DNA from: Candidatus Latescibacterota bacterium
Lineage (GTDB): Bacteria > Latescibacterota > UBA2968 > GCA-2709665
DNA length: 64,000 nt
Direction of reading: 5' to 3'
Assembly: GCA_963662665.2 (NCBI GenBank)
Contig: CAXXJS010000017.1
Span: 25,556-89,555 of the forward strand
Shown here: in pieces, positions 72 through 63,005 of the stretch
How positions within the stretch are numbered: position 1 is the first letter of the stretch
Layout: every line of letters begins with the position of its first letter
Program-made: the position numbers and the translations under genes
Notes under the pieces: model-generated
What the model was told of the DNA's origin: nothing
The model's input: only the letters and a program-made list of their open reading frames with translations
Database searches by the model: none

Positions 72-85
72 CGTTCTTCAGTTGA

Positions 86-120
86 TGACAGTTCCCCCTT
101 CCTTCAGGAAGGGGGATAGG
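86..120. repeat. 35-nt palindromic intergenic repeat (copy A)
   Basis: Reverse complement CCTATCCCCCTTCC-TGAA-GGAAGGGGGAACTGTCA equals 49946-49980 except for the 4 loop bases. Confidence 0.85.
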
Positions 121-224
121 TCGCGCCCCATGGCGCATCTGCCCCTTCGCGCGAACGGTGGCGGAGAGGGGAGCTTTCCACCGCCCCGTAGAGCGCCTCG
201 CCTCTAACGCGTCCGGTGGCTGAG

Positions 225-399
225 TGGGGGCTTTTCCACGCGCTTCCGTCTGGCAGTGAAGTACCGTGGTACGGGATTCGTACGCAGGCCACCGACGCAG
301 ATAAATACCCTTGAGACGATTCGTGGAAAAGCAGCCCCGCGGCGTTTGAGCGGCGCCGTTCTTTTTGGTCCTTTTTCTTTGGCGAAAAAGAAAAAGGAC
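225..399 (+). repeat. ~175-nt structured interspersed element / candidate ncRNA (copy 1)
   Basis: Stem 230-240/322-332 (GCTTTTCCACG/CGTGGAAAAGC) and 13-bp stem 368-380/387-399; colinear with the reverse complement of 29283-29454. Confidence 0.8.
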
Positions 400-531
400 A
401 TTGAAATAGGGGAAGTCGGCGGGGTTGATAAATTCCATGCCTCTCCGAATCCAATGTCCCCAGGAACCGCAATTCCATTGCTCGAGTAACGCTGACAAAC
501 GCTGTTCACGGCCGCCATTCTGATTCCGGAG

Positions 532-2253
532 GTGAGTGCCATTAACCGCCAGGACGACGGAAATCGCCAGCGAAAGTCGCCGGACGACTTTCTGCAGGAC
601 TACGTGGATATGCAGCACACGTTCCGGTCGCTGTCCATTATCGACCAGATATTGATGTCCATGGACGAAAAGGACAAGCGGCGCCCCCTGCTCTACCATC
701 TCCGCCGCCAGCTTCAGGAAGACGAGATTACGTTCGAGGAGGCCAGGCGGACCATCGTGGAGATGGAGACCGCGCTGGAGAAGGTGACGGCGCCGGCCAA
801 CCGCGTGGGAACGCTTCTGGAGGCCCCCCGCGACGGGGTGGCCTATATCAGCGTGGGCGGCTCGGAATATTACGCGAACGTGGATTCCCGGCTGGACCAG
901 GAGGCGCTGAAGGTGGGCACGAGGGTGCTGGTCAACGACGCGTTTGCCATCGTCGGCGAACTGGGAATTTCGGTTGCCGGCCAGGTGGCGAAGATCTCCG
1001 ACGTGCTCGAAGACGGCCGGCTGCGCGTCGGCCAGGAGCCGGGCGGGCAGGTCACCGTGCTTTCCCGCTCCAGCGATTTGGCGCCGGTGTCTCTGAAGGC
1101 GGGCGACGACGTCCGCGTGGATCCGAATTTCCGCGTGGCGCTGGAACGGATGCCCGAAAAAGACGCGAAAGACTACTACCTCGAAGAGATTCCACATCTG
1201 CCCTGGGATAAGATCGGCGGCCAGGAGGAGGCCATCCAGGCCATTAAGGATACAATTGAGATGCCGGCGCTGCATCCGGACCTGTTTTCCAGGTTCCAGT
1301 ACAGCGTACCCAAGGGGTTCCTGTTGTACGGCCCGCCGGGCTGCGGCAAGACCCTGATCGGCAAGGCAACCGCCTACAACCTCGTCAAGCAGGCCCAGCA
1401 GGAGGCCGGTCTGAACCTGAAAGAATGTTTCATGAATATCAAAGGCCCGGAAATCCTGAACATGTGGCTGGGCGAGTCCGAACGCCAGGTTCGCGAGATT
1501 TTTTCCAGGGCCCGGGAGAAGCGGAAAGAGGGCTGCCTGCCGGTGGTATTCATCGACGAAGCGGAGTCGGTTCTCGGCACCCGCCGGGCCATGCGGTCGC
1601 ACAGCATTTCAAATACGGTGGTGCCGATGTTCTGTTCGGAAATGGACGGCATCGAGTCGCTGCAGGACGTGGTGATCATACTGGCGTCCAACCGGCCCGA
1701 CCTGATCGATCCCGCCATTTTGCGGCCGGGAAGAATCGACAGGAAAATAAAGGTGAAGCGCCCGGACCGGTACGGCGCGCTCGATATCCTCAAGATCTAC
1801 CTGACGCCCGACCTGCCGATCGATCGGAAGGCCCTGGAACAACACGACGGCGACGCGTCCGGAGCGGTGGAATTCCTCGTTGCGCGCACGGCGGAAGAGA
1901 TTTTTTCAAAGAGGGACCATACGCGATTTCTCGAAGTGACCCTCCGAAGCGGCCGGAAAGACGTTCTGCGCCGGGGGGATCTGGCCAGCGGGGCCATCAT
2001 GGAATCGATTGTGAGGCGCGCGAAAGAAATGGCCATCCGTCGCTCGATCTCGTCGGGCATTGAAGAGGGCATTTCCCAGGACGATCTCCTTCAGGCGGTC
2101 GAGACCGAGTACACGGAGAATGAGATTTTCCCGCCCACGGATAATACCGAAGACTGGTTGAAGCTGCTGGACTACGATCCGGAAAACGTCGTGCGGGCGT
2201 CGCCTGTTCGCCCGGGGCGGGAAGTGGACCGGCGTGCGAGTCGCACGGTATAG
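532..2253 (+). CDS. arc: Proteasome-associated AAA+ ATPase (ARC/Mpa family)
   Basis: N-terminal coiled coil and OB-like region, Walker A GPPGCGKT, NIKGPEILN, Walker B VFIDEAE, SRH ASNRPDLIDPAILRPGRID; first gene of proteasome operon. Confidence 0.93.
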   Translation: MSAINRQDDGNRQRKSPDDFLQDYVDMQHTFRSLSIIDQILMSMDEKDKRRPLLYHLRRQLQEDEITFEEARRTIVEMETALEKVTAPANRVGTLLEAPRDGVAYISVGGSEYYANVDSRLDQEALKVGTRVLVNDAFAIVGELGISVAGQVAKISDVLEDGRLRVGQEPGGQVTVLSRSSDLAPVSLKAGDDVRVDPNFRVALERMPEKDAKDYYLEEIPHLPWDKIGGQEEAIQAIKDTIEMPALHPDLFSRFQYSVPKGFLLYGPPGCGKTLIGKATAYNLVKQAQQEAGLNLKECFMNIKGPEILNMWLGESERQVREIFSRAREKRKEGCLPVVFIDEAESVLGTRRAMRSHSISNTVVPMFCSEMDGIESLQDVVIILASNRPDLIDPAILRPGRIDRKIKVKRPDRYGALDILKIYLTPDLPIDRKALEQHDGDASGAVEFLVARTAEEIFSKRDHTRFLEVTLRSGRKDVLRRGDLASGAIMESIVRRAKEMAIRRSISSGIEEGISQDDLLQAVETEYTENEIFPPTDNTEDWLKLLDYDPENVVRASPVRPGREVDRRASRTV

Positions 2254-2330
2254 GGTTCCGGCGCTATCCTTTCTGGCTTGGCGCCGCATCAGGTGGCAAG
2301 GTTTTTCCTCTACCGTCTCCCCGCCTCTCG

Positions 2331-2355
2331 AAAAGGACATTGAAATAGGGGAAGT
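2331..2355 (+). repeat. 25-nt direct repeat shared by arc and dop upstream regions
   Basis: AAAAGGACATTGAAATAGGGGAAGT is identical at 392-416 and 2331-2355. Confidence 0.85.
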
Positions 2356-2458
2356 TGGTGGGAGGTGTGAATCCAATTTCACACATTTTCACCCATATCC
2401 ACGCGAAGCGAAACGCGGTATCTGCCTTTCCCTTGAAATCAAGATCTGAGCATGAGTC

Positions 2459-3979
2459 ATGAATCGACTTTTCGGCCTGGAAACGGAGTACGGAATCACC
2501 ATTGACGGTGTGGGCGGCATCGACGTGGTGGAAGAGTCGATGCAGCTGATCCGTTGCTATCTCCAGGGTGAATTCACACCCCTGTGGGACTATCAGCTGG
2601 AAAACCCCCGTAAAGACGTGCGGGGGTTTGAAGTGAGTTCCCTGCTGAACGATACGGACGAGAAGGTCCACCTCCAGAAGGACCGTCAGCGAAAGGTGCC
2701 CCTGAAGGAATTGAAAAGCGACCTGATTATCTGTAACGGCGCCCGATTCTACAACGACCATACCCATCCTGAATATTCCACCGGCGAGTGCCTGAGCCTG
2801 TTCGAACTGGTCGCGCAGGACCGGGCGGGCGAGCGGATCGTGGATATCTGCGCACGACGGCGTACGGAGATGCTGCCCCGGGGCGAGGTCCGCATTTACA
2901 AGAACAACACCGACTTCGAAGGCCATAGCTACGGGTGTCACGAGAATTACCTGATGGACCGCGGGACGCCGTTCGACAGAATCGTGAAGGGCCTGCTGCC
3001 CTTTCTGGTTACGCGGCAGATATACGCGGGCGCCGGGAAGATGGGCGTGGAACGCGGCGACAGGGCGTCCATCTATCAACTCTCGCAGCGGTCCGAATTC
3101 TTCGAGGTGATCGCCAGTGTCGATACCATGCACAAGCGGCCGCTGATCAACACCCGCGACGAACCGCACGCCGACGCCGGCCGCTACCGCAGGCTGCACG
3201 TCATTCTTGGCGACGCAAACATGTCGGAATACGTCACGGCGCTGAAGGTCGGCGCCGCGGCCCTGGTGGTGGCGCTGGTGGAACAGGATGACCTGCCCGA
3301 CGTGGTCCTGAAGGATCCGATTTCGGCCCTGAATGACGTATCGCGCGACCAGAGTTATCAGTGGCTGGTGGAACTGGATCGCAAGACGGATCGGCTGGTT
3401 CCGGCCGTTGACGTCCAGCGGATGTACCTTGCCCGCGCGAAAGACCGGTTCGGAGGGCTGGACGTGGAGACGGACTGGGTCCTGAACGCCTGGGAGGAGA
3501 TCCTGGCGGACCTCGAACGGGACCCCATGGCAACGGTGGGCGTCTGCGACTGGGCAAGCAAGAAGTGGTTGCTGGATTGTTTTCGCGAGGCCGAGGGACT
3601 CTCCTGGGACAATCCGGACGATCTGGCCTGGCTTCAGAGCCAGGACCTGGAGTACCACAACGTGGACCGGGAGGCCGGTCTCTATTTTCTCCTGGAAGAC
3701 CAGGGCAAGATGGTCCGGCTCCTGGACGACGAGCGGATCGTGGAAGCGATGTCCGTTCCCCCCACCGACACACGGGCGTACTTCCGCGGGCGGTGCCTGG
3801 AGAAGTTCGGCCACGACGTCAAATCGGTCAACTGGGACCGGATCGTATTTTCATCGAACGGGAAACAGCGTTCCGTGGATATGAAGGATCTGGTTGATGG
3901 AGAGAAGGTCGCGTATTATAATAGGGTGTTGGATCGCTCGGATGAATTGGAGGAGTTCCTGAACGCACTCGAGGCCTGA
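2459..3979 (+). CDS. dop: Dop-like depupylase/deamidase (PafA2 family)
   Basis: FGLETEYG start, NGARFYNDHTHPEYS (Dop-type), KNNTDFEGHSYGCHENYL, INTRDEPHAD, RRLHVILGDAN. Confidence 0.88.
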   Translation: MNRLFGLETEYGITIDGVGGIDVVEESMQLIRCYLQGEFTPLWDYQLENPRKDVRGFEVSSLLNDTDEKVHLQKDRQRKVPLKELKSDLIICNGARFYNDHTHPEYSTGECLSLFELVAQDRAGERIVDICARRRTEMLPRGEVRIYKNNTDFEGHSYGCHENYLMDRGTPFDRIVKGLLPFLVTRQIYAGAGKMGVERGDRASIYQLSQRSEFFEVIASVDTMHKRPLINTRDEPHADAGRYRRLHVILGDANMSEYVTALKVGAAALVVALVEQDDLPDVVLKDPISALNDVSRDQSYQWLVELDRKTDRLVPAVDVQRMYLARAKDRFGGLDVETDWVLNAWEEILADLERDPMATVGVCDWASKKWLLDCFREAEGLSWDNPDDLAWLQSQDLEYHNVDREAGLYFLLEDQGKMVRLLDDERIVEAMSVPPTDTRAYFRGRCLEKFGHDVKSVNWDRIVFSSNGKQRSVDMKDLVDGEKVAYYNRVLDRSDELEEFLNALEA

Positions 3980-4137
3980 CCGTGGGTCGCTTCGCCGGTG
4001 CGTGTCGCGTGGCCGTTCGAGAGAACCTGCCTGCGTTCCTGAACGGATTCGAGGGTTCTGTCCCGGAAATAGATAGCCTGAATTCGGCGGATGAGCTGTG
4101 AAATATTCCCGGGACGGGACACAAGGAGGAGATGACA

Positions 4138-4329
4138 ATGAAGAAAGACCTGGCCGGTTTGGAACGGCGGACCCGGCGGACGGATCCGCCCGACGGAGGG
4201 CCGAACGAGGGGGACGACGGACCGTCCCGTCCGGACGTGGACCGACCCGATACCCGCGACCTGTTGCGCCGGATGCGCCGCGTAGACCCGAACCAGGCGC
4301 GACGCTACCGTCAGCGTACGGGCGAGTGA
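4138..4329 (+). CDS. ubact: Ubiquitin-like protein UBact (Pup analogue)
   Basis: Small charged, Pro-rich ORF between dop and prcB ending LLRRMRRVDPNQARRYRQRTGE (R[ST]G[EQ] terminus). AGGAGG at 4124-4129 favours ATG 4138 over 4132. Confidence 0.92.
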   Translation: MKKDLAGLERRTRRTDPPDGGPNEGDDGPSRPDVDRPDTRDLLRRMRRVDPNQARRYRQRTGE

Positions 4330-4333
4330 GCCT

Positions 4334-5152
4334 ATGGGTGCGGGCGGAGATTTTCTGGATCTGCTGAAAGCGGAAGGATACCGGCTGCCCGGCGCCGACC
4401 TGCGGGAAAGCGCGCCGGGCGGCGCGTCGCCCCTTCCGTTCCAGCCCACCGAGGGCACGACCATCCTGGCGCTTCGCTACCGGGACGGCGTCCTCATCGC
4501 GGGCGACCGGCGGGCTACGGCCGGCCATACGGTGCTTTATGACCGCGCCGACAAGGTCATCGATATAGACGCGTATTCCGTAATGGCCATTTCCGGATCG
4601 CCGGCGATGGCGTACGAAATCGCCCGCATTCTCGAACACACGTTTCAATATCACAGGCGCCGACAGTTACAGGAAATGAGCCTGGCGGCCAAGCTGAGGC
4701 GCCTTTCCCTCCTGATCCGCGACAATCTGCCGATGGCCCTGCAGGGCATCGGCCCGGTAATCCCCATTTTTGCCACGTACGATCGGCAGGACAGCCGCGG
4801 CAAGATCTTCTTTTACGACGTGCTGGGCGCGCAGTTCGAAAGCGCCGATTTTTCCACGACGGGATCGGGCGCGGCGGCCATCCGGGGCGCGATGTTTTAT
4901 AACAACCAGTGGGGCGAGCGCCCCTTTGCCGAACTGGACCGGAGCGAGAGCCTCGGAATGGCGTTGCGCCTGTTGCATACGGCCGCGGAATACGACGCCG
5001 CCACGGGAAGGTACGAGCGTAACTTCGGGGTGCTGCCCACGGTGAAGACAATTTCGGCTAAGGGACTGCAAACAGTGCCCGAGGAAGACCTGCGGGCGTC
5101 CTACGAGCATTATATCGCCCACGCCGACGGACCGGGAGACGCTGAAGAATGA
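4334..5152 (+). CDS. prcB: 20S proteasome beta subunit
   Basis: Propeptide then G|TTILAL nucleophile, AGDRRAT, TTGSG; Ntn-hydrolase pattern. Confidence 0.92.
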   Translation: MGAGGDFLDLLKAEGYRLPGADLRESAPGGASPLPFQPTEGTTILALRYRDGVLIAGDRRATAGHTVLYDRADKVIDIDAYSVMAISGSPAMAYEIARILEHTFQYHRRRQLQEMSLAAKLRRLSLLIRDNLPMALQGIGPVIPIFATYDRQDSRGKIFFYDVLGAQFESADFSTTGSGAAAIRGAMFYNNQWGERPFAELDRSESLGMALRLLHTAAEYDAATGRYERNFGVLPTVKTISAKGLQTVPEEDLRASYEHYIAHADGPGDAEE

Positions 5153-5928
5153 TGCTGGAAGAACCCTATCGCTGGGCGGAGGCGGTTGCCAACCGGCGGG
5201 AATATATCGAGGACCAGCTTCGGGGCGGCAGCCCGGTTGTGGGCCTGGCCTATCGGGACGGAGCGCTTCTGTTGACGCTGAGCCAGGGCCAGCAGAAAAT
5301 CTTCGAAGTGTACGACAGCATCGGCATGGGCGCCCTCGGACATCCCGCGGATATAGAGAAGTTGCGCCAGTCCGCCGTGGACCTGGCGTCCGTGATCGGG
5401 TTCAACTATTCGGAGCAGGACGTGAACCTGCAGCAGATCGTGCACTTCGGCCTGGCCCCCGCGGTGAAGCAGGCGTTCGACGAGGTTTTCCGATCGCCGT
5501 ATATCGTGCGAGTCCTGATGGTGGAGCTGGATGTATCGGAAAAGGGCGCCGTCTTCTATACGGTGGACTACGACGGCGCGTTCCAGAAACACGAGGGCCG
5601 CGGCGTTGTGGCAGAGGTTGCCGAAGCGGACGGGTTGATGCGGAGCTATCTGCCGGAAACCGGCCGCCTCAGCCTGCGAAACGCGTTGAAGGCCGCGCTG
5701 GAGGCCTGGGCGGCCGGACGTTTTGCTGGAGACCTGGACGAGATCCCCAGGGAGACGTCGGAGTTGGAACGGGCGGCCGCCGAGGCGGATCTGAAAGCTG
5801 TATTGAAGTCCGCGTTGAAATCGTCCACTGTCGAGGCCGTGGTGTTCAACCGGTCCGGGCCGGACAAACGCCGGTATCGCGTTGTTACGGATAGAGAGAT
5901 ACAGCCCGTGATCAGGCCGTATCGCTGA
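5149..5928 (+). CDS. prcA: 20S proteasome alpha subunit
   Basis: EEPYRW..ANRREYIEDQLRGGSPVV, KIFEVYD; ATGA overlap with prcB. Confidence 0.88.
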   Translation: MMLEEPYRWAEAVANRREYIEDQLRGGSPVVGLAYRDGALLLTLSQGQQKIFEVYDSIGMGALGHPADIEKLRQSAVDLASVIGFNYSEQDVNLQQIVHFGLAPAVKQAFDEVFRSPYIVRVLMVELDVSEKGAVFYTVDYDGAFQKHEGRGVVAEVAEADGLMRSYLPETGRLSLRNALKAALEAWAAGRFAGDLDEIPRETSELERAAAEADLKAVLKSALKSSTVEAVVFNRSGPDKRRYRVVTDREIQPVIRPYR

Positions 5929-6005
5929 GCGCGGCCCCGCCCCTGCCCGCGGGCGCGAACAGGGGGATGTGAATCCTTCAAGAGATAGACGTGTGAGGGC
6001 CCCCG

Positions 6006-7472
6006 ATGGAACGACGGATTTTCGGTCTGGAAACCGAATATGGATGCATGGCGCCGGAGCACGAGGGGTTCGTGAGCCCGGATGCCATTACGGTGAAGGT
6101 GAAGGACCATATTTTCCACACCGAGCGTAAGGGAATTGTAGATATCCATTATCGGGGCCGGGACGAACCGCCGGGAAACGGCGGTTTTTTGTTCAATTCC
6201 GGCAGGGTCTATATCGATATGGGGCATATCGAATATACCACGCCGGAATGCAAGAGTCTTTTCGACCTGGTGGCCTCCGACCGGGCGGGAGAACGGATTC
6301 TGCAGCGCTCGCTTCGTTCGCTGGGGCTGGCGAAGGAGGCTTCGTTCCTCAAGAACAATATCGACCACTATACCGGCGCCACCTTCGGCTGCCACGAGAA
6401 CTACCTGATCCGGCGAAACGTGCCGTTTTCCATGGTGGTGATTCCCGCGCTGCTCCCGTTTCTGGTTACGCGGCAGATTTACAGCGGCGCCGGCCGCGTG
6501 GGCAGCTACGACGACAGTTTCTACTACTATGGCCGGGACGACGTCGACGACGCCGGCCACGAGGATCCCGTCGCCTTTCAGATTTCGCAGCGCGCGGACC
6601 ACATTGTCACCGAAATCTACCAGTGGATCCAGTTTTCCCGTGCCATTATCAACACGCGAGACGAGCCGCTGGCCGACTACAACAAGTACCGCAGGCTGCA
6701 CCTGCTGATGGGCGACTCCAATATGTCGGAGTACGCCACCGCTCTGAAGGTGGGCGCCACCGCGATGGTGTTGAATCTGCTGGAGCAGAGGATCTTTCCA
6801 CAGGACGTGGGCCTGGGTGACCCTGTCTGGGCGTTGAAGGAGATTTCCAGGGATCCCACCCACAAATGGATCCTCGAACGCAAGAACGGCCGGCCGGTGT
6901 CGGCAATCGATATCCAGCGGCGCTACCTGGACCTGGCGAAGCGCCACCTGCGGGGGATGGACGAGGAGTCGGACTGGGTGCTGGTTGAATGGGAACAGAC
7001 GCTGAACGCCCTGGAGCGGGACCCGATGGTCCTGAAGGACCGGCTGGACTGGGTGGCCAAGAAGTGGATGCTGGAGATGTTCGTGCAGTCGGAAGGCGTG
7101 GATTGGAACGACCCGTGGCTCCAGAGCCTGGACCTTGAGTACCACAATATCGACCCCAACCAGGGATTTTACCTCGACCTCGAGCGCAAGGGGATGACAC
7201 GCCGAATATTGACCGAGGAGCAGATCGCCCGCGCGGGAGACGAACCGCCGGCCGATACGCGGGCCCGGGGCCGGTCCGACGTGATCAGGGCCCTGTCGGA
7301 GAACCGGATGCGGTATATCGTGGACTGGGACTCGGTCTATCTCGAAAACGAGAGCCACCTGAGTCTCCAGGATCCTTTCGATACCTACCGGGAAGCGGCG
7401 GCGGAGTTCATCCACGAGATCCGCTCGGCCTCGCCCTCTCCACGCCGCACCATGCGGCGCCGGCTGAAGTGA
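6006..7472 (+). CDS. pafA: PafA-like UBact-protein ligase
   Basis: RRIFGLETEYG, GRVYIDMGHIEYTTPEC (ligase-type), GCHENYL, ISQRADH, RAIINTRDEPLAD, DLEYH. Confidence 0.88.
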   Translation: MERRIFGLETEYGCMAPEHEGFVSPDAITVKVKDHIFHTERKGIVDIHYRGRDEPPGNGGFLFNSGRVYIDMGHIEYTTPECKSLFDLVASDRAGERILQRSLRSLGLAKEASFLKNNIDHYTGATFGCHENYLIRRNVPFSMVVIPALLPFLVTRQIYSGAGRVGSYDDSFYYYGRDDVDDAGHEDPVAFQISQRADHIVTEIYQWIQFSRAIINTRDEPLADYNKYRRLHLLMGDSNMSEYATALKVGATAMVLNLLEQRIFPQDVGLGDPVWALKEISRDPTHKWILERKNGRPVSAIDIQRRYLDLAKRHLRGMDEESDWVLVEWEQTLNALERDPMVLKDRLDWVAKKWMLEMFVQSEGVDWNDPWLQSLDLEYHNIDPNQGFYLDLERKGMTRRILTEEQIARAGDEPPADTRARGRSDVIRALSENRMRYIVDWDSVYLENESHLSLQDPFDTYREAAAEFIHEIRSASPSPRRTMRRRLK

Positions 7473-29282: not shown

Positions 29283-29454
29283 GTCCTTTTTCTTATCCGC
29301 GGAAGAAAAAGGACCAAAAAGAAGCGCGCCGCTCGGCGCGGGGCCGGTTTTTCCACGAATCACGAAACTGGTGAATACAAACGCGTCTGTCCTGCGGGCG
29401 ATCAAGCACCCACAAGGCGACTGTGGTGGACGGATCAACGTGGAAAAACCCCCA
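29283..29454 (-). repeat. ~175-nt structured interspersed element / candidate ncRNA (copy 2)
   Basis: Stems 29283-294/29303-314 and 29347-357/29439-449; colinear with 225-399. Confidence 0.8.
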
Positions 29455-29557: not shown

Positions 29558-29627
29558 GTAGGGGCGACCCTTGTGGTCGCCCGCCTTTCCGCTGCCCGCC
29601 ACCGGCCGGTTCGCGAACTGCCCCTAC
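29558..29627. repeat. GTAG-type REP doublet (REPIN-like)
   Basis: GTAGGGGCGACCCTTGTGGTCGCCC on plus and GTAGGGGCAGTTCGCGAACCGGCC on minus strand, in inverted orientation. Confidence 0.75.
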
Positions 29628-33362: not shown

Positions 33363-33385
33363 CAAGTGAATTGGTGGACGGGAAA

Positions 33386-33433
33386 CCTATCCCGCCTGCC
33401 TGGCGGCAGGCACCCTTTCCTGACGGAAAGGGT
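33386..33433. repeat. Composite palindromic repeat related to 86-120/49946-49980
   Basis: CCTATCCC, then a GCCTGCC-TGGC-GGCAGGC hairpin, then a CACCCTTTCC-TGAC-GGAAAGGGTG hairpin. Confidence 0.6.
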
Positions 33434-33547
33434 GAAGCGGATTGCGCGATGGGAATTCGGTTGCCCCCTTCGGGGGAGAAAAGCGAAAGGCGGGTAGGTC
33501 CGCGGTCGCGGAGGCGCCTGCCTTTCGGTTGTTTCCCGGACAGAACG

Positions 33548-36645: not shown

Positions 36646-36664
36646 GATCTATCTCCTCGAATAC

Positions 36665-36695
36665 AGCTGTCAGCAATCAGCTCTCAGCTAAAAGC
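36665..36695. repeat. Heptamer tandem repeat (AGCnnTC)n
   Basis: AGCTGTC AGCAATC AGCTCTC AGCTAAA AGC; second array at 38361-38390. Confidence 0.65.
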
Positions 36696-36754
36696 AAAAA
36701 CCGGGTCGGGCGGTGTGGCCCTCTCCCGTATCACGGCTTGCGGCTACCCGATTC

Positions 36755-43740: not shown

Positions 43741-45678
43741 TCAGGAGGTCACCGACTCCCGTACGTCGGGCGCGGCAATGATCTTCCGAATGGCGTCCTC
43801 TTCGGAGCCACAGCATCCATTGTCCTCGTGGCTGCCGTTTATAACCGGAAGTTCGAGTTCGCCGGTTTCAGTTTCCCGGACCCTCAGCGTGTGGTCCGTC
43901 TCCGGCAATGGCATGTCGCGGTTGCCCGCATAGATGGGATGCCTGCCCATGGTTTTGAACCAGTCGGACGTGGTGGCGGTCATATGCATATTCTCTATAA
44001 TCTGACGCCAGCCGATCCCCGTGTTATACGCGCAGAATGAGATCTCCCCTTCCTGGGTGCCGTACGGGATCACGCACATTTCCGTCCGGCGGAAATCGTA
44101 GGTCCACAGATCCTGGAACCACATCCCGCCAACCCACATAATACGCCACTGCCTGTCGGCGGGCCTCGGACCGCCGCTGATGGATCCGCCCACCCTGCGG
44201 TCCAGAATCCGCGCAAGATCCGGAAGTCCGAACCCGGCCGGCGCTTTCTTTTCGTTGAAATTCCGAAGCAGCGACATGCCCACCTGGAACTTGATCCATT
44301 TGGGGTCCCGCGCGGTATCCGTCATCACTTCGATGTCCTTCATAAACTGTTCCTGGTTGAAGAACTCGGTGATGGGTGCCCACTGCCTGGTCTTCTCGTT
44401 CACGATTATATGGGCCGCGGAACCGCAGTTGGGATGACAGGAGCAGGTCTGACCCCCGAATTCGACGTCCTGCCCGCGCAGGTGGTCGGCAAGCGTGGTA
44501 AACAACGTCCCCGATCCCAGCGGGTACCAGTCCCGGTGGGCGTCGATTTTCCCCCCGGACCACGTCTGCAGATCGTGAGCGAGGTGGGAAATGGTATACC
44601 GCTGCCGGTGGCGCATCTCGTCGGAGATTTCTTCGTCCCGTCCGGTAAACGAAACGGGCTGGAAGGAAATCGAACCGACCTTGTCGCTGTTATCGATGCA
44701 GAATTGGAGAATGGGCCCGACCTGTTCGTTGTTGATGGTGTTCAGGACCGTCGTGACCGGCGTGATATCGATTCCGGCGCGGGAGAGGTTCTCCATTGCC
44801 AGCAGCTTGGCGTCGAACAGGTTGGAAATGTGACGATGCTGGTTGGCCGCATTCGTTACACCGTCGAATTGCAGATAGGCCATGTCGAAACCGGCCGCCT
44901 TCGCTTCGAAAGCGAATTCCGGTTCTTCGGCAAAGCGTATCCCGTTGGTTGCGGCCTGCACACACCAGTATCCGACCTCTTTGGCGTACCGGCACGCATC
45001 CAGGAAATGCGGCGAAATCGTGGGTTCTCCGCCAGAGAACTGTACTGACATCTGCCGTCGTGGCTTGAAGGAGATCGATGCGTCCAGGATCCGTTTCACG
45101 TCGTCCATTGTGAGTTCGTGGACGTAACCCACCTGGTTCGCGTCCATGAAACAGGGATTACACATCATATTGCAGCGGTTGGTCAGGTCGATCGTGAGCA
45201 CGGCTCCCCGCCCGTACTTGATGCTGGACGTTCCGTGCCGGTGCACGTGCGCGTCCCCCCAGGTGCTGTAATCGCGCCCGGGAAAACGCCCCTCGATCAG
45301 GCGTGTAAACTCCGGATCGATTGACAATACGTCTTCAAACGGGCCGTGGACCGAGCACGTTTTGCGCATCAGAATACAACCGTTTTCCTCGAGGATCTGC
45401 GCTTTGATTTCTCCGGGATTGCCGTGTACCAGTTCTCCGATGTCCCGCGTGCCTTCAATGATGGCCGTCCGCACCTCCTTCACGCAATCCGGGCAAAGCG
45501 AATCGGTCTCGCGCGGAAACCCCAGCGTGGGCATCGATCGCTGATAACTCTTCAAAAGAGGCGCCGAAGCCCAGGCAGGTTGGAATGGTTGACCCTCGGG
45601 GAGCCTTGTATTCACGCTCTGGAAGGCATTCCAGGCGACGTTTGCAGCCCCTGAAACGACGCGGTCACGAAAACTCAT
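43741..45678 (-). CDS. Radical SAM enzyme, tetraether synthase (Tes/GDGT-MAS, MJ0619)-like family
   Basis: N-terminal SLCPDC...KTCSVHG metal site, DLTNRCNMMCNPCF, QFSGGEPT, YLQFDG, FQPVSFTGR, CSCHPNCG, FQDLWTYD.RR..C.I.Y....ISFCAYN. Confidence 0.85.
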   Translation of the reverse strand: MSFRDRVVSGAANVAWNAFQSVNTRLPEGQPFQPAWASAPLLKSYQRSMPTLGFPRETDSLCPDCVKEVRTAIIEGTRDIGELVHGNPGEIKAQILEENGCILMRKTCSVHGPFEDVLSIDPEFTRLIEGRFPGRDYSTWGDAHVHRHGTSSIKYGRGAVLTIDLTNRCNMMCNPCFMDANQVGYVHELTMDDVKRILDASISFKPRRQMSVQFSGGEPTISPHFLDACRYAKEVGYWCVQAATNGIRFAEEPEFAFEAKAAGFDMAYLQFDGVTNAANQHRHISNLFDAKLLAMENLSRAGIDITPVTTVLNTINNEQVGPILQFCIDNSDKVGSISFQPVSFTGRDEEISDEMRHRQRYTISHLAHDLQTWSGGKIDAHRDWYPLGSGTLFTTLADHLRGQDVEFGGQTCSCHPNCGSAAHIIVNEKTRQWAPITEFFNQEQFMKDIEVMTDTARDPKWIKFQVGMSLLRNFNEKKAPAGFGLPDLARILDRRVGGSISGGPRPADRQWRIMWVGGMWFQDLWTYDFRRTEMCVIPYGTQEGEISFCAYNTGIGWRQIIENMHMTATTSDWFKTMGRHPIYAGNRDMPLPETDHTLRVRETETGELELPVINGSHEDNGCCGSEEDAIRKIIAAPDVRESVTS

Positions 45679-47772: not shown

Positions 47773-49938
47773 ATGTTCCATCACGACGAATTCCCCGATA
47801 AACTCGTCCACATTTCGGACGCTTCTTTCTTCGAAGCCGTGAATTTCGACCTCCCCGGACTTCACGAGGTCCGGCGCGCCGCGGATTCGAACCGCTACGA
47901 TGAGGCATTCGACGCATGGTGGGGGCATTTCCTCTCCCGGAGCAACCCGGTCAACCCCTTTGCGGGTTCGGCGGAGCAACTCACGCCCAGGGTTGCCGCC
48001 AACTCCGATCTGGCGGACACCATTCTCGACGGGGGAAGCCGGCAATTCGGCCAGGTCGAAATCGACTTCTCACGCCCGGTTGAATTCAACGCCTGGTTCG
48101 GTGATCAGTCCAAATACGGCTTCCATTATCTGGGCTGGATGGATTGCCTGACCAGGGCCGCGCTGGACACGCGCGATGAGCGGTACATCGAAGCTTACCT
48201 CGAAATCTTCCGACAGTGGTACGCCGTCAGACACGAAATCACGGGCGCCCGCCGGATGCATCCGGTCTTCTACGAACTCGGTCTCTCCGTAAGGAGCCAC
48301 AGGTTCCTGAACTTCCTTTACGTTGTCAAGCTTCTGGAAATGGGCCACCAGCTATCTCCTGACCACGTCCGCCTGCTCTTCAAGTCGCTTCTCGGTGCGG
48401 CCCGCTGGTTGACGTTGGAGCAGAACGCAAAAGGCTACCGGACCGGAAACTGGCAGGTCCACGGCATCTCGGCTTTGCTCCTCATTGGTTTTCTGTTTCC
48501 GGAATTCCATGAATCCGAAGCCTTCCGTACCGTCGGCGCGCGGTACCTCGAGCAGCACATGGAGAAGGACTATTACGAAGACGGCGGCCACAGCGAACGC
48601 TGCTATTCCTATGGAAGCGGCTGCCTGCGCCACCTGGAAGAAGCCACTCTTCTGGCTGAGGCCAACCCCGGCCTCCTCCCGCCGGTCACCCTGGATTGGC
48701 GGGAGCGCACGTCATGCGCCTACGCCTGGTTCCTCAAGATGGCCGGCCCGGGAGGCGAAATGCCCGGCATCAACGACGGCGGCTTCATGGACGGGACGGC
48801 ACTGCTGAAGCAGGCAGGCGCTTTCACCGGCGACGCCTCGTATCTCTGGCCTATCCGGCACAGACTGGACGGGACCGATCCGGAGCCCCGTAAACCCGCT
48901 TTCGAGAGCCTGCGCCTGGAATCCAGCGAATTCTGCGTGATGCGCTCCGGTTGGGAGCCGGAGGACACCTTCATGCTCGTCAACCACGGGCAATGGCCGG
49001 GCGGCCACAGCCATATGGGCATTCTGGACGTCAACCTCTATGCCCGCGGTATCCCCCTTGTCGCCGAAGTCTCCCGTTTCGGGCCGTACGATGCCCCGTG
49101 GGATATGTACTTCCGCTCCGAACAGGCGCACAATCACGTTGTGATTGAAGGCGCCCCTTCCGCCCGGCCCGATTTCCGCGGCGAACAGATCCGGTTCGGC
49201 AGCACGCCGTCCCGCGATTTCTTTTCCGGCCGGCACCGCGCGTACGAAGCCAGCGCCGGGGTTGTGATCGAACGCAGAATCCTGTTTTTCAAACCATGGG
49301 GCTTTCTCGTGTCGGACGCCGTCGCGTGTACCCATCGCAGGAGAAGCGCGCTATGGTATCTGCACAGCGTCTTTCCCTTCGCTACAAACGGTACCGCCGC
49401 CTTTGCGGAAGGCGACGATGCCGGACTCCTCGTTGCGCCCGCGAACCCCAGGCAGCTCAAATATGCGTTCAACGGCATCGACTATCTGGAGGAAATGGTG
49501 AAGGAAATACCCGTTTACTCCGGCGATCCGCCCTCCGCGCCGTGGCCGGATCGCTATTTCCTCGCACTTCGAGGTTGGGGAGTTGAGCAGCCCATCACCC
49601 CATTCGACGTTCTCCTTATGCCATATAAGGGCGCGCGCCCCGAGGCAACGGTCACGACGCTCGAGTGTGAGGTCGACGGCAGCGCCGAATCTCCGGTTCT
49701 GCCGCGCGCGCTGCAAATTACCGCCGCGGACCACCACCATCTCGTGTTTCACGGCGCTCCCGGTGTCACCATCGCCGCTCACGACGTTTCTTTCTCGGGA
49801 CATACAGCCGCCATCGAATACCGGAACGGCCGTCCCGTGAAAGCCTTCGTTCACCAGGGCAGCCACCTGACGGTAGCCGGGCAACACATCGCCATCTCAG
49901 ATTCGCCAACCCGGGAAATTGATCTGGACGGGACCTGA
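47773..49938 (+). CDS. Heparinase II/III-like polysaccharide lyase
   Basis: GNWQ, DGGHSER..Y, PGINDG, VMRSGW, GHSH, AHNHVVI; alpha-toroid plus beta-sandwich pattern. Confidence 0.82.
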   Translation: MFHHDEFPDKLVHISDASFFEAVNFDLPGLHEVRRAADSNRYDEAFDAWWGHFLSRSNPVNPFAGSAEQLTPRVAANSDLADTILDGGSRQFGQVEIDFSRPVEFNAWFGDQSKYGFHYLGWMDCLTRAALDTRDERYIEAYLEIFRQWYAVRHEITGARRMHPVFYELGLSVRSHRFLNFLYVVKLLEMGHQLSPDHVRLLFKSLLGAARWLTLEQNAKGYRTGNWQVHGISALLLIGFLFPEFHESEAFRTVGARYLEQHMEKDYYEDGGHSERCYSYGSGCLRHLEEATLLAEANPGLLPPVTLDWRERTSCAYAWFLKMAGPGGEMPGINDGGFMDGTALLKQAGAFTGDASYLWPIRHRLDGTDPEPRKPAFESLRLESSEFCVMRSGWEPEDTFMLVNHGQWPGGHSHMGILDVNLYARGIPLVAEVSRFGPYDAPWDMYFRSEQAHNHVVIEGAPSARPDFRGEQIRFGSTPSRDFFSGRHRAYEASAGVVIERRILFFKPWGFLVSDAVACTHRRRSALWYLHSVFPFATNGTAAFAEGDDAGLLVAPANPRQLKYAFNGIDYLEEMVKEIPVYSGDPPSAPWPDRYFLALRGWGVEQPITPFDVLLMPYKGARPEATVTTLECEVDGSAESPVLPRALQITAADHHHLVFHGAPGVTIAAHDVSFSGHTAAIEYRNGRPVKAFVHQGSHLTVAGQHIAISDSPTREIDLDGT

Positions 49939-49945
49939 CCTACCC

Positions 49946-50045
49946 CCTATCCCCCTTCCCAGGGGAAGGGGGAACTGTCACCTCTTGAAGGGGTTTCCTT
50001 CTGCTCCCCCTCTCCCTGTGGGAGAGGGGGTTGGGGGGTGAGGGG
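49946..50045. repeat. Paired palindromic intergenic repeats (copy B plus CCCCTCTCCC-type hairpin)
   Basis: 49946-49980 matches 86-120 inverted; CCCCCTCTCCC-TGT-GGGAGAGGGGG then TTGGGGGTGAGG. Confidence 0.8.
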
Positions 50046-50175
50046 CTTGCGCAGGGGAGAGGTCCCGCGCCGTCGTTGCCGACGTGATGGCGTTGGCATC
50101 GGCGAAATCCGGGGCCACAACGTGGATAAATGGTTCCACGTCATCTTTCAGAGGGCTTGACGGGAAATATCAACG

Positions 50176-62882: not shown

Positions 62883-63005
62883 CGCCAGCGCTGTGACCTC
62901 TCCCCCCGCCCCGTGCGGTTTCATTTCGTGCCGGTGGCATAAAGGAAGAACCAATCGGGCAAGGATGTCTTCTCACGGCTCCCGTCTTCCCTCTCCCCGC
63001 CTTTA

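What the first reader, a model, noticed from the sequence alone, without database searches (positions are those of the whole stretch)
225..399. ~175-nt structured non-coding element, two diverged copies with a compensatory base pair, each in sense upstream of a major operon
Seen: 225-399 (+) and 29283-29454 (-) share ordered blocks TGGGGG.TTTTCCACG, TCCGTC, CGCAGG.CA..GACGC, GATTCGTGGAAAA, CCCCGCG, GAGCGGCGC, TTCTTTTTGGTCCTTTTTCTT, AAGAAAAAGGAC, while the loops differ. The long-range stem is GCTTTTCCACG/CGTGGAAAAGC in copy 1 and GTTTTTCCACG/CGTGGAAAAAC in copy 2 (C-G to T-A covariation). The 3' hairpin keeps 12-13 bp with different loops, and its T-run lies before the stem, so it is not a normal terminator. 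Copy 1 precedes arc and copy 2 precedes gltB, both in sense. Inference: structure is under selection, so this is either an unrecognised ncRNA/leader or a non-autonomous mobile element folded as ssDNA/RNA. I cannot assign it to a known family.
Basis: partly seen in the sequence, partly recalled or inferred. Interest (0 to 1): 0.7.

Follow-up and report, generated by a model that had tools for sequence, protein, structure and literature searches.

The report
Triplex-capped mobile intergenic DNA repeat
The two segments are copies of a gene-less repeat that comes and goes between related bacteria; it is predicted to fold, likely as single-stranded DNA, into a stem holding a fixed-length variable loop and a triple-helix knot, and it is likely spread by recombination rather than acting as a gene switch.

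Summary
The two segments are 2 of 16 copies in this genome, with 46-77 in four relatives. Upstream of arc only 2 of 15 genus genomes carry one; upstream of gltB, 6 of 15. Orientation to downstream genes is near chance. Its linker mirrors the 3' hairpin as a pyrimidine triple helix requires. The long stem closes an 81-nt loop of fixed length and about 50% identity, with no pairing, coding or self-guide signal. GNA triloops beside the knot in relatives point to single-stranded DNA. Copies are mosaic, and whole repeat arrays are 95-99% alike between two species whose flanking genes are mostly 75-93% alike. No partner enzyme was found; one single-contig carrier has no RT, DUF559 or Y1 hit. There is no Rfam match, but two TwoAYGGAY loci end in a knot of the same design. 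The scan reported this family before, on other DNA and once in this genome. Verdict: a new variant of non-autonomous intergenic repeats; function untested.

The parts
94..116 (+). BoxC/TMECO-like pyrimidine-purine hairpin; a separate small repeat at the 5' side of the array
   Evidence: Sequence; same module upstream of several copies and around DUF559 genes; label by comparison with PMC4666352 passages
151..208 (+). First G-rich leader plus a short upstream module of the mosaic array
   Evidence: Leader motif found at C17 25705, followed by a different module
209..229 (+). G-rich leader in front of the long stem; the same motif precedes other modules and one empty site
230..332 (+). Copy 1: long stem P1 (230-240 with 322-332) closing an 81-nt loop (241-321); the loop has conserved motifs at about 245-249 and 286-291 and copy-specific sequence between them
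   Evidence: coordinates read by hand
337..353 (+). Copy 1: small hairpin P2
   Evidence: 3 of 4 pairs with changes on both sides
354..399 (+). Copy 1: knot. Pseudoknot stem 354-357 with 381-384; hairpin 368-380 with 387-399; predicted third strand 359-366 lying parallel on purines 388-395
   Evidence: the triple helix is predicted from sequence only
400..430 (+). Purine-rich tail (G-type)
2331..2358 (+). Remnant: last bases of a knot plus tail between arc and dop; 27 of 28 bases match copy 1
   Evidence: G011, G007 hold a full copy and G003, G005, G006, G008 at least its start at this site
29283..29328 (-). Copy 2: knot, with a compensated pseudoknot pair relative to copy 1
29347..29449 (-). 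Copy 2: long stem P1 and loop
29450..29627 (-). Copy 2: leader, an upstream module resembling the start of the loop, and a pair of REP-like palindromes (29558-29627)
   Evidence: 97-99% identical to the same site in G006; REP label recalled

Best explanation
This is a non-coding repeat of Latescibacterota-type genomes that is gained and lost at intergenic sites, is predicted to fold on one strand, likely as single-stranded DNA, into a stem with a fixed-length loop plus a triple-helix pseudoknot, and is likely spread by recombination rather than by an enzyme encoded beside it. SHOWN: many dispersed copies; presence differs between relatives at the same site; four covarying helices; fixed spacing of the loop motifs; mosaic copies; array-sized tracts nearly identical between two species; no linked enzyme gene. 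INFERRED: (1) The strand written here is the one that folds. (2) The molecule is DNA exposed as a single strand during replication, repair or uptake. (3) The knot, and in most lineages a GNA mini-hairpin beside it, caps and protects the 3' end. (4) The stem presents the loop motifs at a set distance to an unknown protein, which explains length constraint without sequence constraint. (5) Near-identical stems and knots act as recombination handles, so loops, tails and whole arrays are swapped between copies and species; new sites are probably seeded with help from nicking enzymes of neighbouring repeats (DUF559 or Y1 type) when these are present.
For: Copies: 16 here; 54, 68, 77 and 46 pattern matches in G007, G013, G011, G015, none for the reversed control; covariance-model hits in 42 of 101 phylum genomes. 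Turnover: 21 of 22 syntenic G011 sites and 10 of 15 G006 sites are empty in G000 (11 scored, one is a damaged copy). Structure: 99.3% of 2424 cells paired, 10 pairs and 139 cells changed on both sides, 0 of 500 shuffles, slid controls 45-58%. In other genera the stem is wholly replaced yet complementary, and the three triplex tracts change together. Outer tract letters not fixed by the search pattern also match in 5 viral loci. DNA and strand: P1 has 1470 Watson-Crick, 16 G-T and 7 A-C cells of 1560. The small hairpin behind the knot has GNA loops in 25 of 27 cases, and 49 of 49 in the sister family (duplicates not removed), against 7.9% background. Only GNA loops form DNA mini-hairpins, and an RNA counterpart melted far lower (PMC13037366 passages). 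Recombination: left loop half versus tail rho -0.06, versus knot -0.01; 4 of 24 pairs share the right half but not the left. Five G000/G006 shared sites carry 95-99% tracts over the array, against 15% of 432 background windows at 97% or more. No partner; G008 has 27 scored hits but no RT, DUF559 or Y1 match.
Against: No fold was tested at the bench. Rows were picked by motif patterns, so invariant letters and the perfect third-strand count (992 of 992) are partly circular. G-T over A-C (16:7) is weak. The window's two copies lack the GNA hairpin. The mirror motif could also form a purine-type triplex on the opposite strand. Low correlations are partly saturation. Shared sites are biased towards recent transfers, background tracts exist, and one of the five sites (C11) lies in a region 89-98% alike throughout; at least two shared sites (L343, L355) carry a different loop. 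Recombination explains exchange better than first entry into an empty site. Only one clean filled/empty pair was found. A mild sense bias remains in tandem regions (50:30; 10:1 in this genome).
Confidence: 0.5

Rival explanations
1. A multicopy structured RNA, or a 3'-protecting RNA module: the knot is a U-A-U triple-helix pseudoknot as in telomerase or ENE elements, and the loop binds a protein, as proposed for TwoAYGGAY sponges.
For: H-type topology with loop 1 in the major groove of stem 2 is the textbook RNA triplex geometry (recalled). RNA folding z -2.6 and -2.9. Contigs from four RNA libraries cover the knot region. Two TwoAYGGAY loci end in the same design.
Against: Wobble pairs are only about 1%; GNA triloops; fast gain and loss; near-random orientation. 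The RNA contigs are from relatives, may hold DNA and cannot show level, strand or ends.
Confidence: 0.25
2. A classical non-autonomous transposon moved in trans by a dedicated enzyme (rolling-circle or single-strand type) that recognises the knot as one end and often carries upstream modules along.
For: Two recent duplications end 14 and 20 nt behind the knot but extend 262 and 120 or more nt upstream. Other repeats sit on the 5' side. One DUF559 gene has a copy next to it (L312).
Against: No gene recurs next to 166 knots (clusters inspected by eye) or among 53 of 77 ORFs scanned near distant knots. Y1 was not found in 7 and DUF559 not in 3 of the 15 genus genomes; TnpB 0 of 5, IS110 1 of 5. 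No target-site duplication: leader versus own tail 10.5, other tails 10.3, shuffled 9.7 matches of 18.
Confidence: 0.18
3. A cis-regulatory leader of arc, gltB and other operons.
For: 13 of 16 copies here are in sense to the downstream gene.
Against: Missing at these sites in most relatives, neighbours unrelated, 46 of 129 copies do not point into a gene start.
Confidence: 0.04
4. The loop is a guide, a reverse-transcription template or a small ORF.
For: Fixed length with variable sequence between short motifs recalls UG27 units (bioRxiv 10.64898/2026.09.22.753630, sections 9-10). One frame has 15 stops against 41 +/- 5 under column shuffling.
Against: No pairing inside the loop; no excess match elsewhere in the genome (14.1/12.8 against 13.8/13.3 nt); no plasmid or phage match for copy 1. 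Synonymous fraction 0.19-0.34 in all six frames, lengths differ by single bases, and 37 of 93 copies have a stop in that frame. Changes are ordinary transitions, not adenine-specific. G008 and G015 have no RT hit.
Confidence: 0.03

Closest known systems
Extended TwoAYGGAY elements of Pseudomonadota (Rfam RF01731; bioRxiv 10.64898/2026.09.22.753630, passages and sections 8-10 read; figures and supplements not seen)
   Same: Multicopy and intergenic, copy number highly variable, long basal stem plus a 3' pseudoknot, tied to REP arrays, no known mover. Two RF01731 loci fetched here end in a knot of the same mirror-tract design.
   Different: No RF01731 match and no AYGGAY hairpins; the stem closes an unpaired fixed-length loop instead. 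The preprint text has no 'triplex' (0 occurrences) and treats the elements as RNA.
BoxC / PIT / TMECO intrastrand triplex repeats (PMC4666352, passages read)
   Same: Intergenic, three mirror-related tracts, variable between strains, unrelated neighbours, read as single-strand DNA folds.
   Different: TMECO is a 34-36-nt G/C-rich purine-motif (class II) triplex without a pseudoknot. This knot is A/T-rich, pyrimidine-type on the likely strand, knotted, and part of a 175-nt unit. BoxC-like hairpins occur beside it as separate modules.
REP / BIME / REPIN mosaics with RAYT transposases (recalled; no paper read here)
   Same: Non-autonomous extragenic repeats in mosaic arrays; REP-like palindromes flank many copies.
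   Different: Not a short palindrome doublet; no flanked RAYT; Y1 genes not found in this genome.
H-type triple-helix pseudoknots: telomerase core, SAM-II, ENE (recalled)
   Same: Loop 1 pyrimidines parallel to the purine strand of stem 2.
   Different: Those are single-copy functional RNAs; here the motif caps a volatile repeat, and no expression is shown.
Single-strand initiation signals with mini-hairpins, ssiA and N4 promoters (PMC13037366 section 4.2 read)
   Same: A folded single DNA strand with a GNA mini-hairpin that a polymerase or primase could read.
   Different: Not on plasmids or phages in the collections searched; no priming shown; the window's copies lack the mini-hairpin.

Membership tests
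Any Rfam family | Score at or above the gathering threshold | tested here: not met
   0 hits in the window; best E 0.5 for copy 1
TwoAYGGAY (extended) | Two hairpins with AYGGAY loops | tested here: not met
   No RF01731 hit; no pairing inside the loop
TwoAYGGAY (extended) | Long basal stem plus 3' pseudoknot | tested here: met
   same knot design behind RF01731 hits in L325 and L333. The preprint's extended model itself was not available.
BoxC/TMECO | [quoted passage not shown] | tested here: not met
   The knot is A/T-rich and knotted; BoxC-like hairpins are separate neighbours
BoxC/TMECO | Intrastrand triplex shown by CD or NMR | not testable with these tools
   Sequence prediction only
REP/REPIN with RAYT | Cognate Y1 transposase flanked by the repeat | tested here: not met
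   No Y1 in G000; none of 10 Y1 loci in four relatives carries the element
MITE | Terminal inverted repeats and target-site duplication | tested here: not met
   The stem is internal and the knot lies outside it; duplication test negative
IS200/IS605 omega-RNA or IS110 bridge RNA | Cognate TnpB or IS110 recombinase in carriers | tested here: not met
   TnpB 0 of 5, IS110 1 of 5 genomes; IscB not searched
Retron / UG27 / DGR RNA | Linked reverse transcriptase; adenine-specific change for DGR | tested here: not met
   The three RT genes here look like group II intron ORFs on contigs without a copy; two G007 introns sit upstream of a copy; spectrum is transition-dominated
Cis-regulatory leader | Conserved position 5' of functionally related genes | tested here: not met
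Expressed non-coding RNA | Discrete strand-specific transcript | tested here: inconclusive
   Only contigs of relatives were available

The most novel reading that the evidence does not exclude
A cross-phylum class of enzyme-free selfish DNA. A triplex-pseudoknot cap, shared with TwoAYGGAY elements, protects an incoming single strand; a stem-held ruler loop recruits a host protein; and the element homes between species into the same intergenic site by host recombination. TwoAYGGAY 'RNAs' would then be DNA elements.
Probability: 0.2. Interest if true: 0.85.

Novelty: new variant of a known kind. Interest (0 to 1): 0.55.

Why it matters
How gene-less bacterial repeats such as BoxC and TwoAYGGAY spread, and whether intrastrand triplexes are selected in cells, are open questions. 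This family offers three-way sequence change across genera, a 46-nt knot that can be made and probed directly as DNA and as RNA, and natural filled, empty and swapped sites. If arrays do move between species through these handles, they are a route of gene flow between species whose genes differ by about 12%.

Tried and rejected
Rfam: nothing. ORFs across the copies: no Pfam hit. Coding, adenine-specific mutagenesis and loop pairing: rejected. Periodicity of loop conservation: no clear 3-nt or 10.5-nt peak. Loop as guide to its own genome: null. Exact knot pattern in viral contigs 0; copy 1 against plasmids and phages 0. Integron-like or att-like recombination at leader/tail repeats: suggested by one pair but not supported by the control; that pair may be a deletion between G-runs. 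Group II introns beside two G007 copies are read as independent insertions. RNA runs X1-X4 hold relatives only and give no level, strand or ends. Literature: searches returned no paper; two searches listed none that describes this element (listings only). Script failures and slips: (pattern too narrow), first part (6 copies only; redone), (3' hairpin entered one column off; corrected). Outputs were cut; counts rest. Left open: sister-family counts without duplicates, and how often the two families form inverted pairs.

Full report
OBSERVATION. Both segments are as described, upstream of an Arc-type ATPase and of gltB. They match no Rfam family. A two-sequence profile finds 15 near-full copies and one lacking the 3' end in this genome. 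BLAST finds the element in 24 of 61 genomes, including 14 of 14 genus relatives. A knot pattern gives 46-77 matches in four of five genomes tested and none for the reversed control. A covariance model hits 42 of 101 phylum genomes: 8 of 8 in the family, 23 of 26 in the sister family, 0 of 30 in family f3. Named records with the exact pattern are nearly all labelled Latescibacterota or Gemmatimonadota MAGs.

ANATOMY. In order: G-rich leader, stem P1, 81-nt loop, hairpin P2, knot, purine-rich tail. Mutual information showed P1, the 3' hairpin and a pair between the four bases behind P2 and the hairpin loop, that is an H-type pseudoknot. On 76 copies (the two window copies plus 74 of 82 chosen for loops under 80% alike), 99.3% of 2424 cells pair. 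Ten pairs and 139 cells change on both sides, no shuffle of 500 reaches this, and slid structures give 45-58%. Relatedness can inflate the shuffle test, and rows were selected by motifs. The 8-nt pyrimidine linker is the exact parallel match of the hairpin's purine strand, as a T-A-T / C-G-C triple helix needs. In other genera P1 is wholly different but complementary, and linker, hairpin arm and purine arm change together. In five viral loci, letters outside the search pattern also obey the rule. The triplex is a prediction.

THE LOOP. In 130 distinct parsed copies the variable part is 68-72 nt (70 in 86, 71 in 35), with mean identity 0.52 in the modal class. It shows no internal pairing signal and no coding signal (synonymous fraction 0.19-0.34 in all frames). 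One frame is short of stops (15 against 41), but single-base length classes and stops in 37 of 93 copies argue against an ORF. The motif spacings (35-36 and 27 nt in 20 of 24 copies) persist in distant genera. A sister family seen in inverted orientation shows similar loop motifs by eye. The loop matches nothing else in the genome beyond chance.

NOT A LEADER. Upstream of arc, G000 and G009 carry a copy and 13 genomes do not; upstream of gltB, 6 of 15 do, with four different loop types. A relative's contig in the RNA runs has 111 letters in place of window 72-510. With a self-trained gene caller, 83 of 129 copies point into a gene start against 60% expected; tandem regions give 50 sense and 30 antisense. 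Of 30 G011 loci (of 69 matches), 22 were syntenic and 21 empty in G000. Of 25 G006 loci, 15 were syntenic and 10 empty after correcting one damaged copy.

DNA OR RNA. Wobble pairs are rare: 16 G-T and 7 A-C in 1560 P1 cells. Where a small hairpin follows the knot (27 of 220 knots), 25 have a GNA loop. In the sister family all 49 matches do, with three different middle bases (duplicates not removed); the genomic background is 7.9%. A review states that only GNA loops formed DNA mini-hairpins, that these resist 3' exonuclease, and that an RNA counterpart melted at 39 C (PMC13037366 passages). Such hairpins occur in ssiA and N4 promoters (section 4.2). This favours the written strand as single-stranded DNA but does not exclude RNA. 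The window's copies have a purine tail instead. Public RNA data were uninformative.

HOW IT MOVES. No enzyme gene is linked. RT, Y1 and DUF559 are patchy among carriers, and G008, a single contig, has none of the three. TnpB was found in 0 of 5 genomes and IS110 in 1 of 5. There is no target-site duplication. Copies are mosaic: near-identical loops sit with different tails and leaders, and loop halves reassort. Two recent duplications end 14-20 nt behind the knot and reach 120-262 nt upstream. At five sites shared by G000 and G006 (gltB, C26, C65, C53, C11), several hundred bases of repeat array are 95-99% alike. Flanking windows are mostly 75-93% at four of these sites, and C11 is less clear. 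Background windows reach 97% in 15% of 432 cases, and shared sites are biased towards recent transfer, so this suggests array-centred exchange between species without proving it. One G000 site lacks just the element within flanks 95-99% like G006, so turnover is fast.

MECHANISM. I commit to a single-stranded DNA fold spread mainly by recombination, with the knot as protective end, the stem and loop as a spaced binding site, and neighbouring nicking systems as occasional helpers (0.5). Rivals: structured RNA (0.25), dedicated transposase in trans (0.18), leader (0.04), guide or ORF (0.03).

KNOWN RELATIVES. It works like REP/BIME and BoxC mosaics but fails their defining tests. The nearest printed description is the extended TwoAYGGAY element (bioRxiv 10.64898/2026.09.22.753630; passages and sections 8-10 read; supplements closed and figures not held, so its model could not be compared). 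Two of 18 viral loci fetched with related knot patterns carry RF01731 directly in front of such a knot, which ties the families by their 3' end. TMECO differs in class and size (PMC4666352 passages). Searches found no description of this element. Earlier notes of this scan describe the same or similar families; they are leads, not support.

VERDICT. Real, structured and mobile, not a leader; a new variant of a known kind; interest 0.55.

Noticed in passing
window 2331-2358: Tail remnant of the element between arc and dop, fused to another small repeat; several relatives hold a full copy here.
   Followed up: partly
window 532-7472: Pup-proteasome locus outside Actinobacteria: Arc-like ATPase, Dop-like, 20S beta and alpha, PafA-like, all below NCBIfam cut-offs; an unlisted short ORF near 4140-4330 may be the Pup-like modifier.
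   Followed up: no
window 43741-45678 (-): Radical SAM protein whose best hit is tetraether lipid synthase Tes (303 bits, cut-off 450) in a bacterium.
   Followed up: no
L079:1956-2134, L112:903-1083, L022: Sister family with similar loop motifs, a shorter triplex tract and a GNA mini-hairpin, seen inverted upstream of the element.
   Followed up: partly
L085, L082, L052, L405: A 31-37-nt palindromic insert recurs in or just behind hairpin P2 (44 matches in the eight commonest forms, duplicates included).
   Followed up: no
L307, L311, L312, L316-L320: Small DUF559 genes sit in tandem arrays of BoxC-like hairpins, some with partial copies of the gene's own ends.
   Followed up: partly
L193 (G007) versus L198 (G013): Near-identical over at least 900 nt on both sides of a copy: recent exchange of a larger segment between species.
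   Followed up: no
L256, L260, L273, L280, L282, L293: Unrelated metagenome elements with two knots back to back, the 3' one matching the window's knot pattern.
   Followed up: no
L365 (G006) versus G000 C11: A BoxC-containing block has replaced the right half of the loop and P1's 3' arm in an otherwise near-identical copy.
   Followed up: partly
window 33380-33500, 36660-36700, 49935-50050, 62890-63005: Further small repeats of the BoxC-like and other array-module types without the element.
   Followed up: no
G000 C16, C24, C61: Three near-identical 463-aa reverse transcriptase ORFs with group II intron-like ends.
   Followed up: partly
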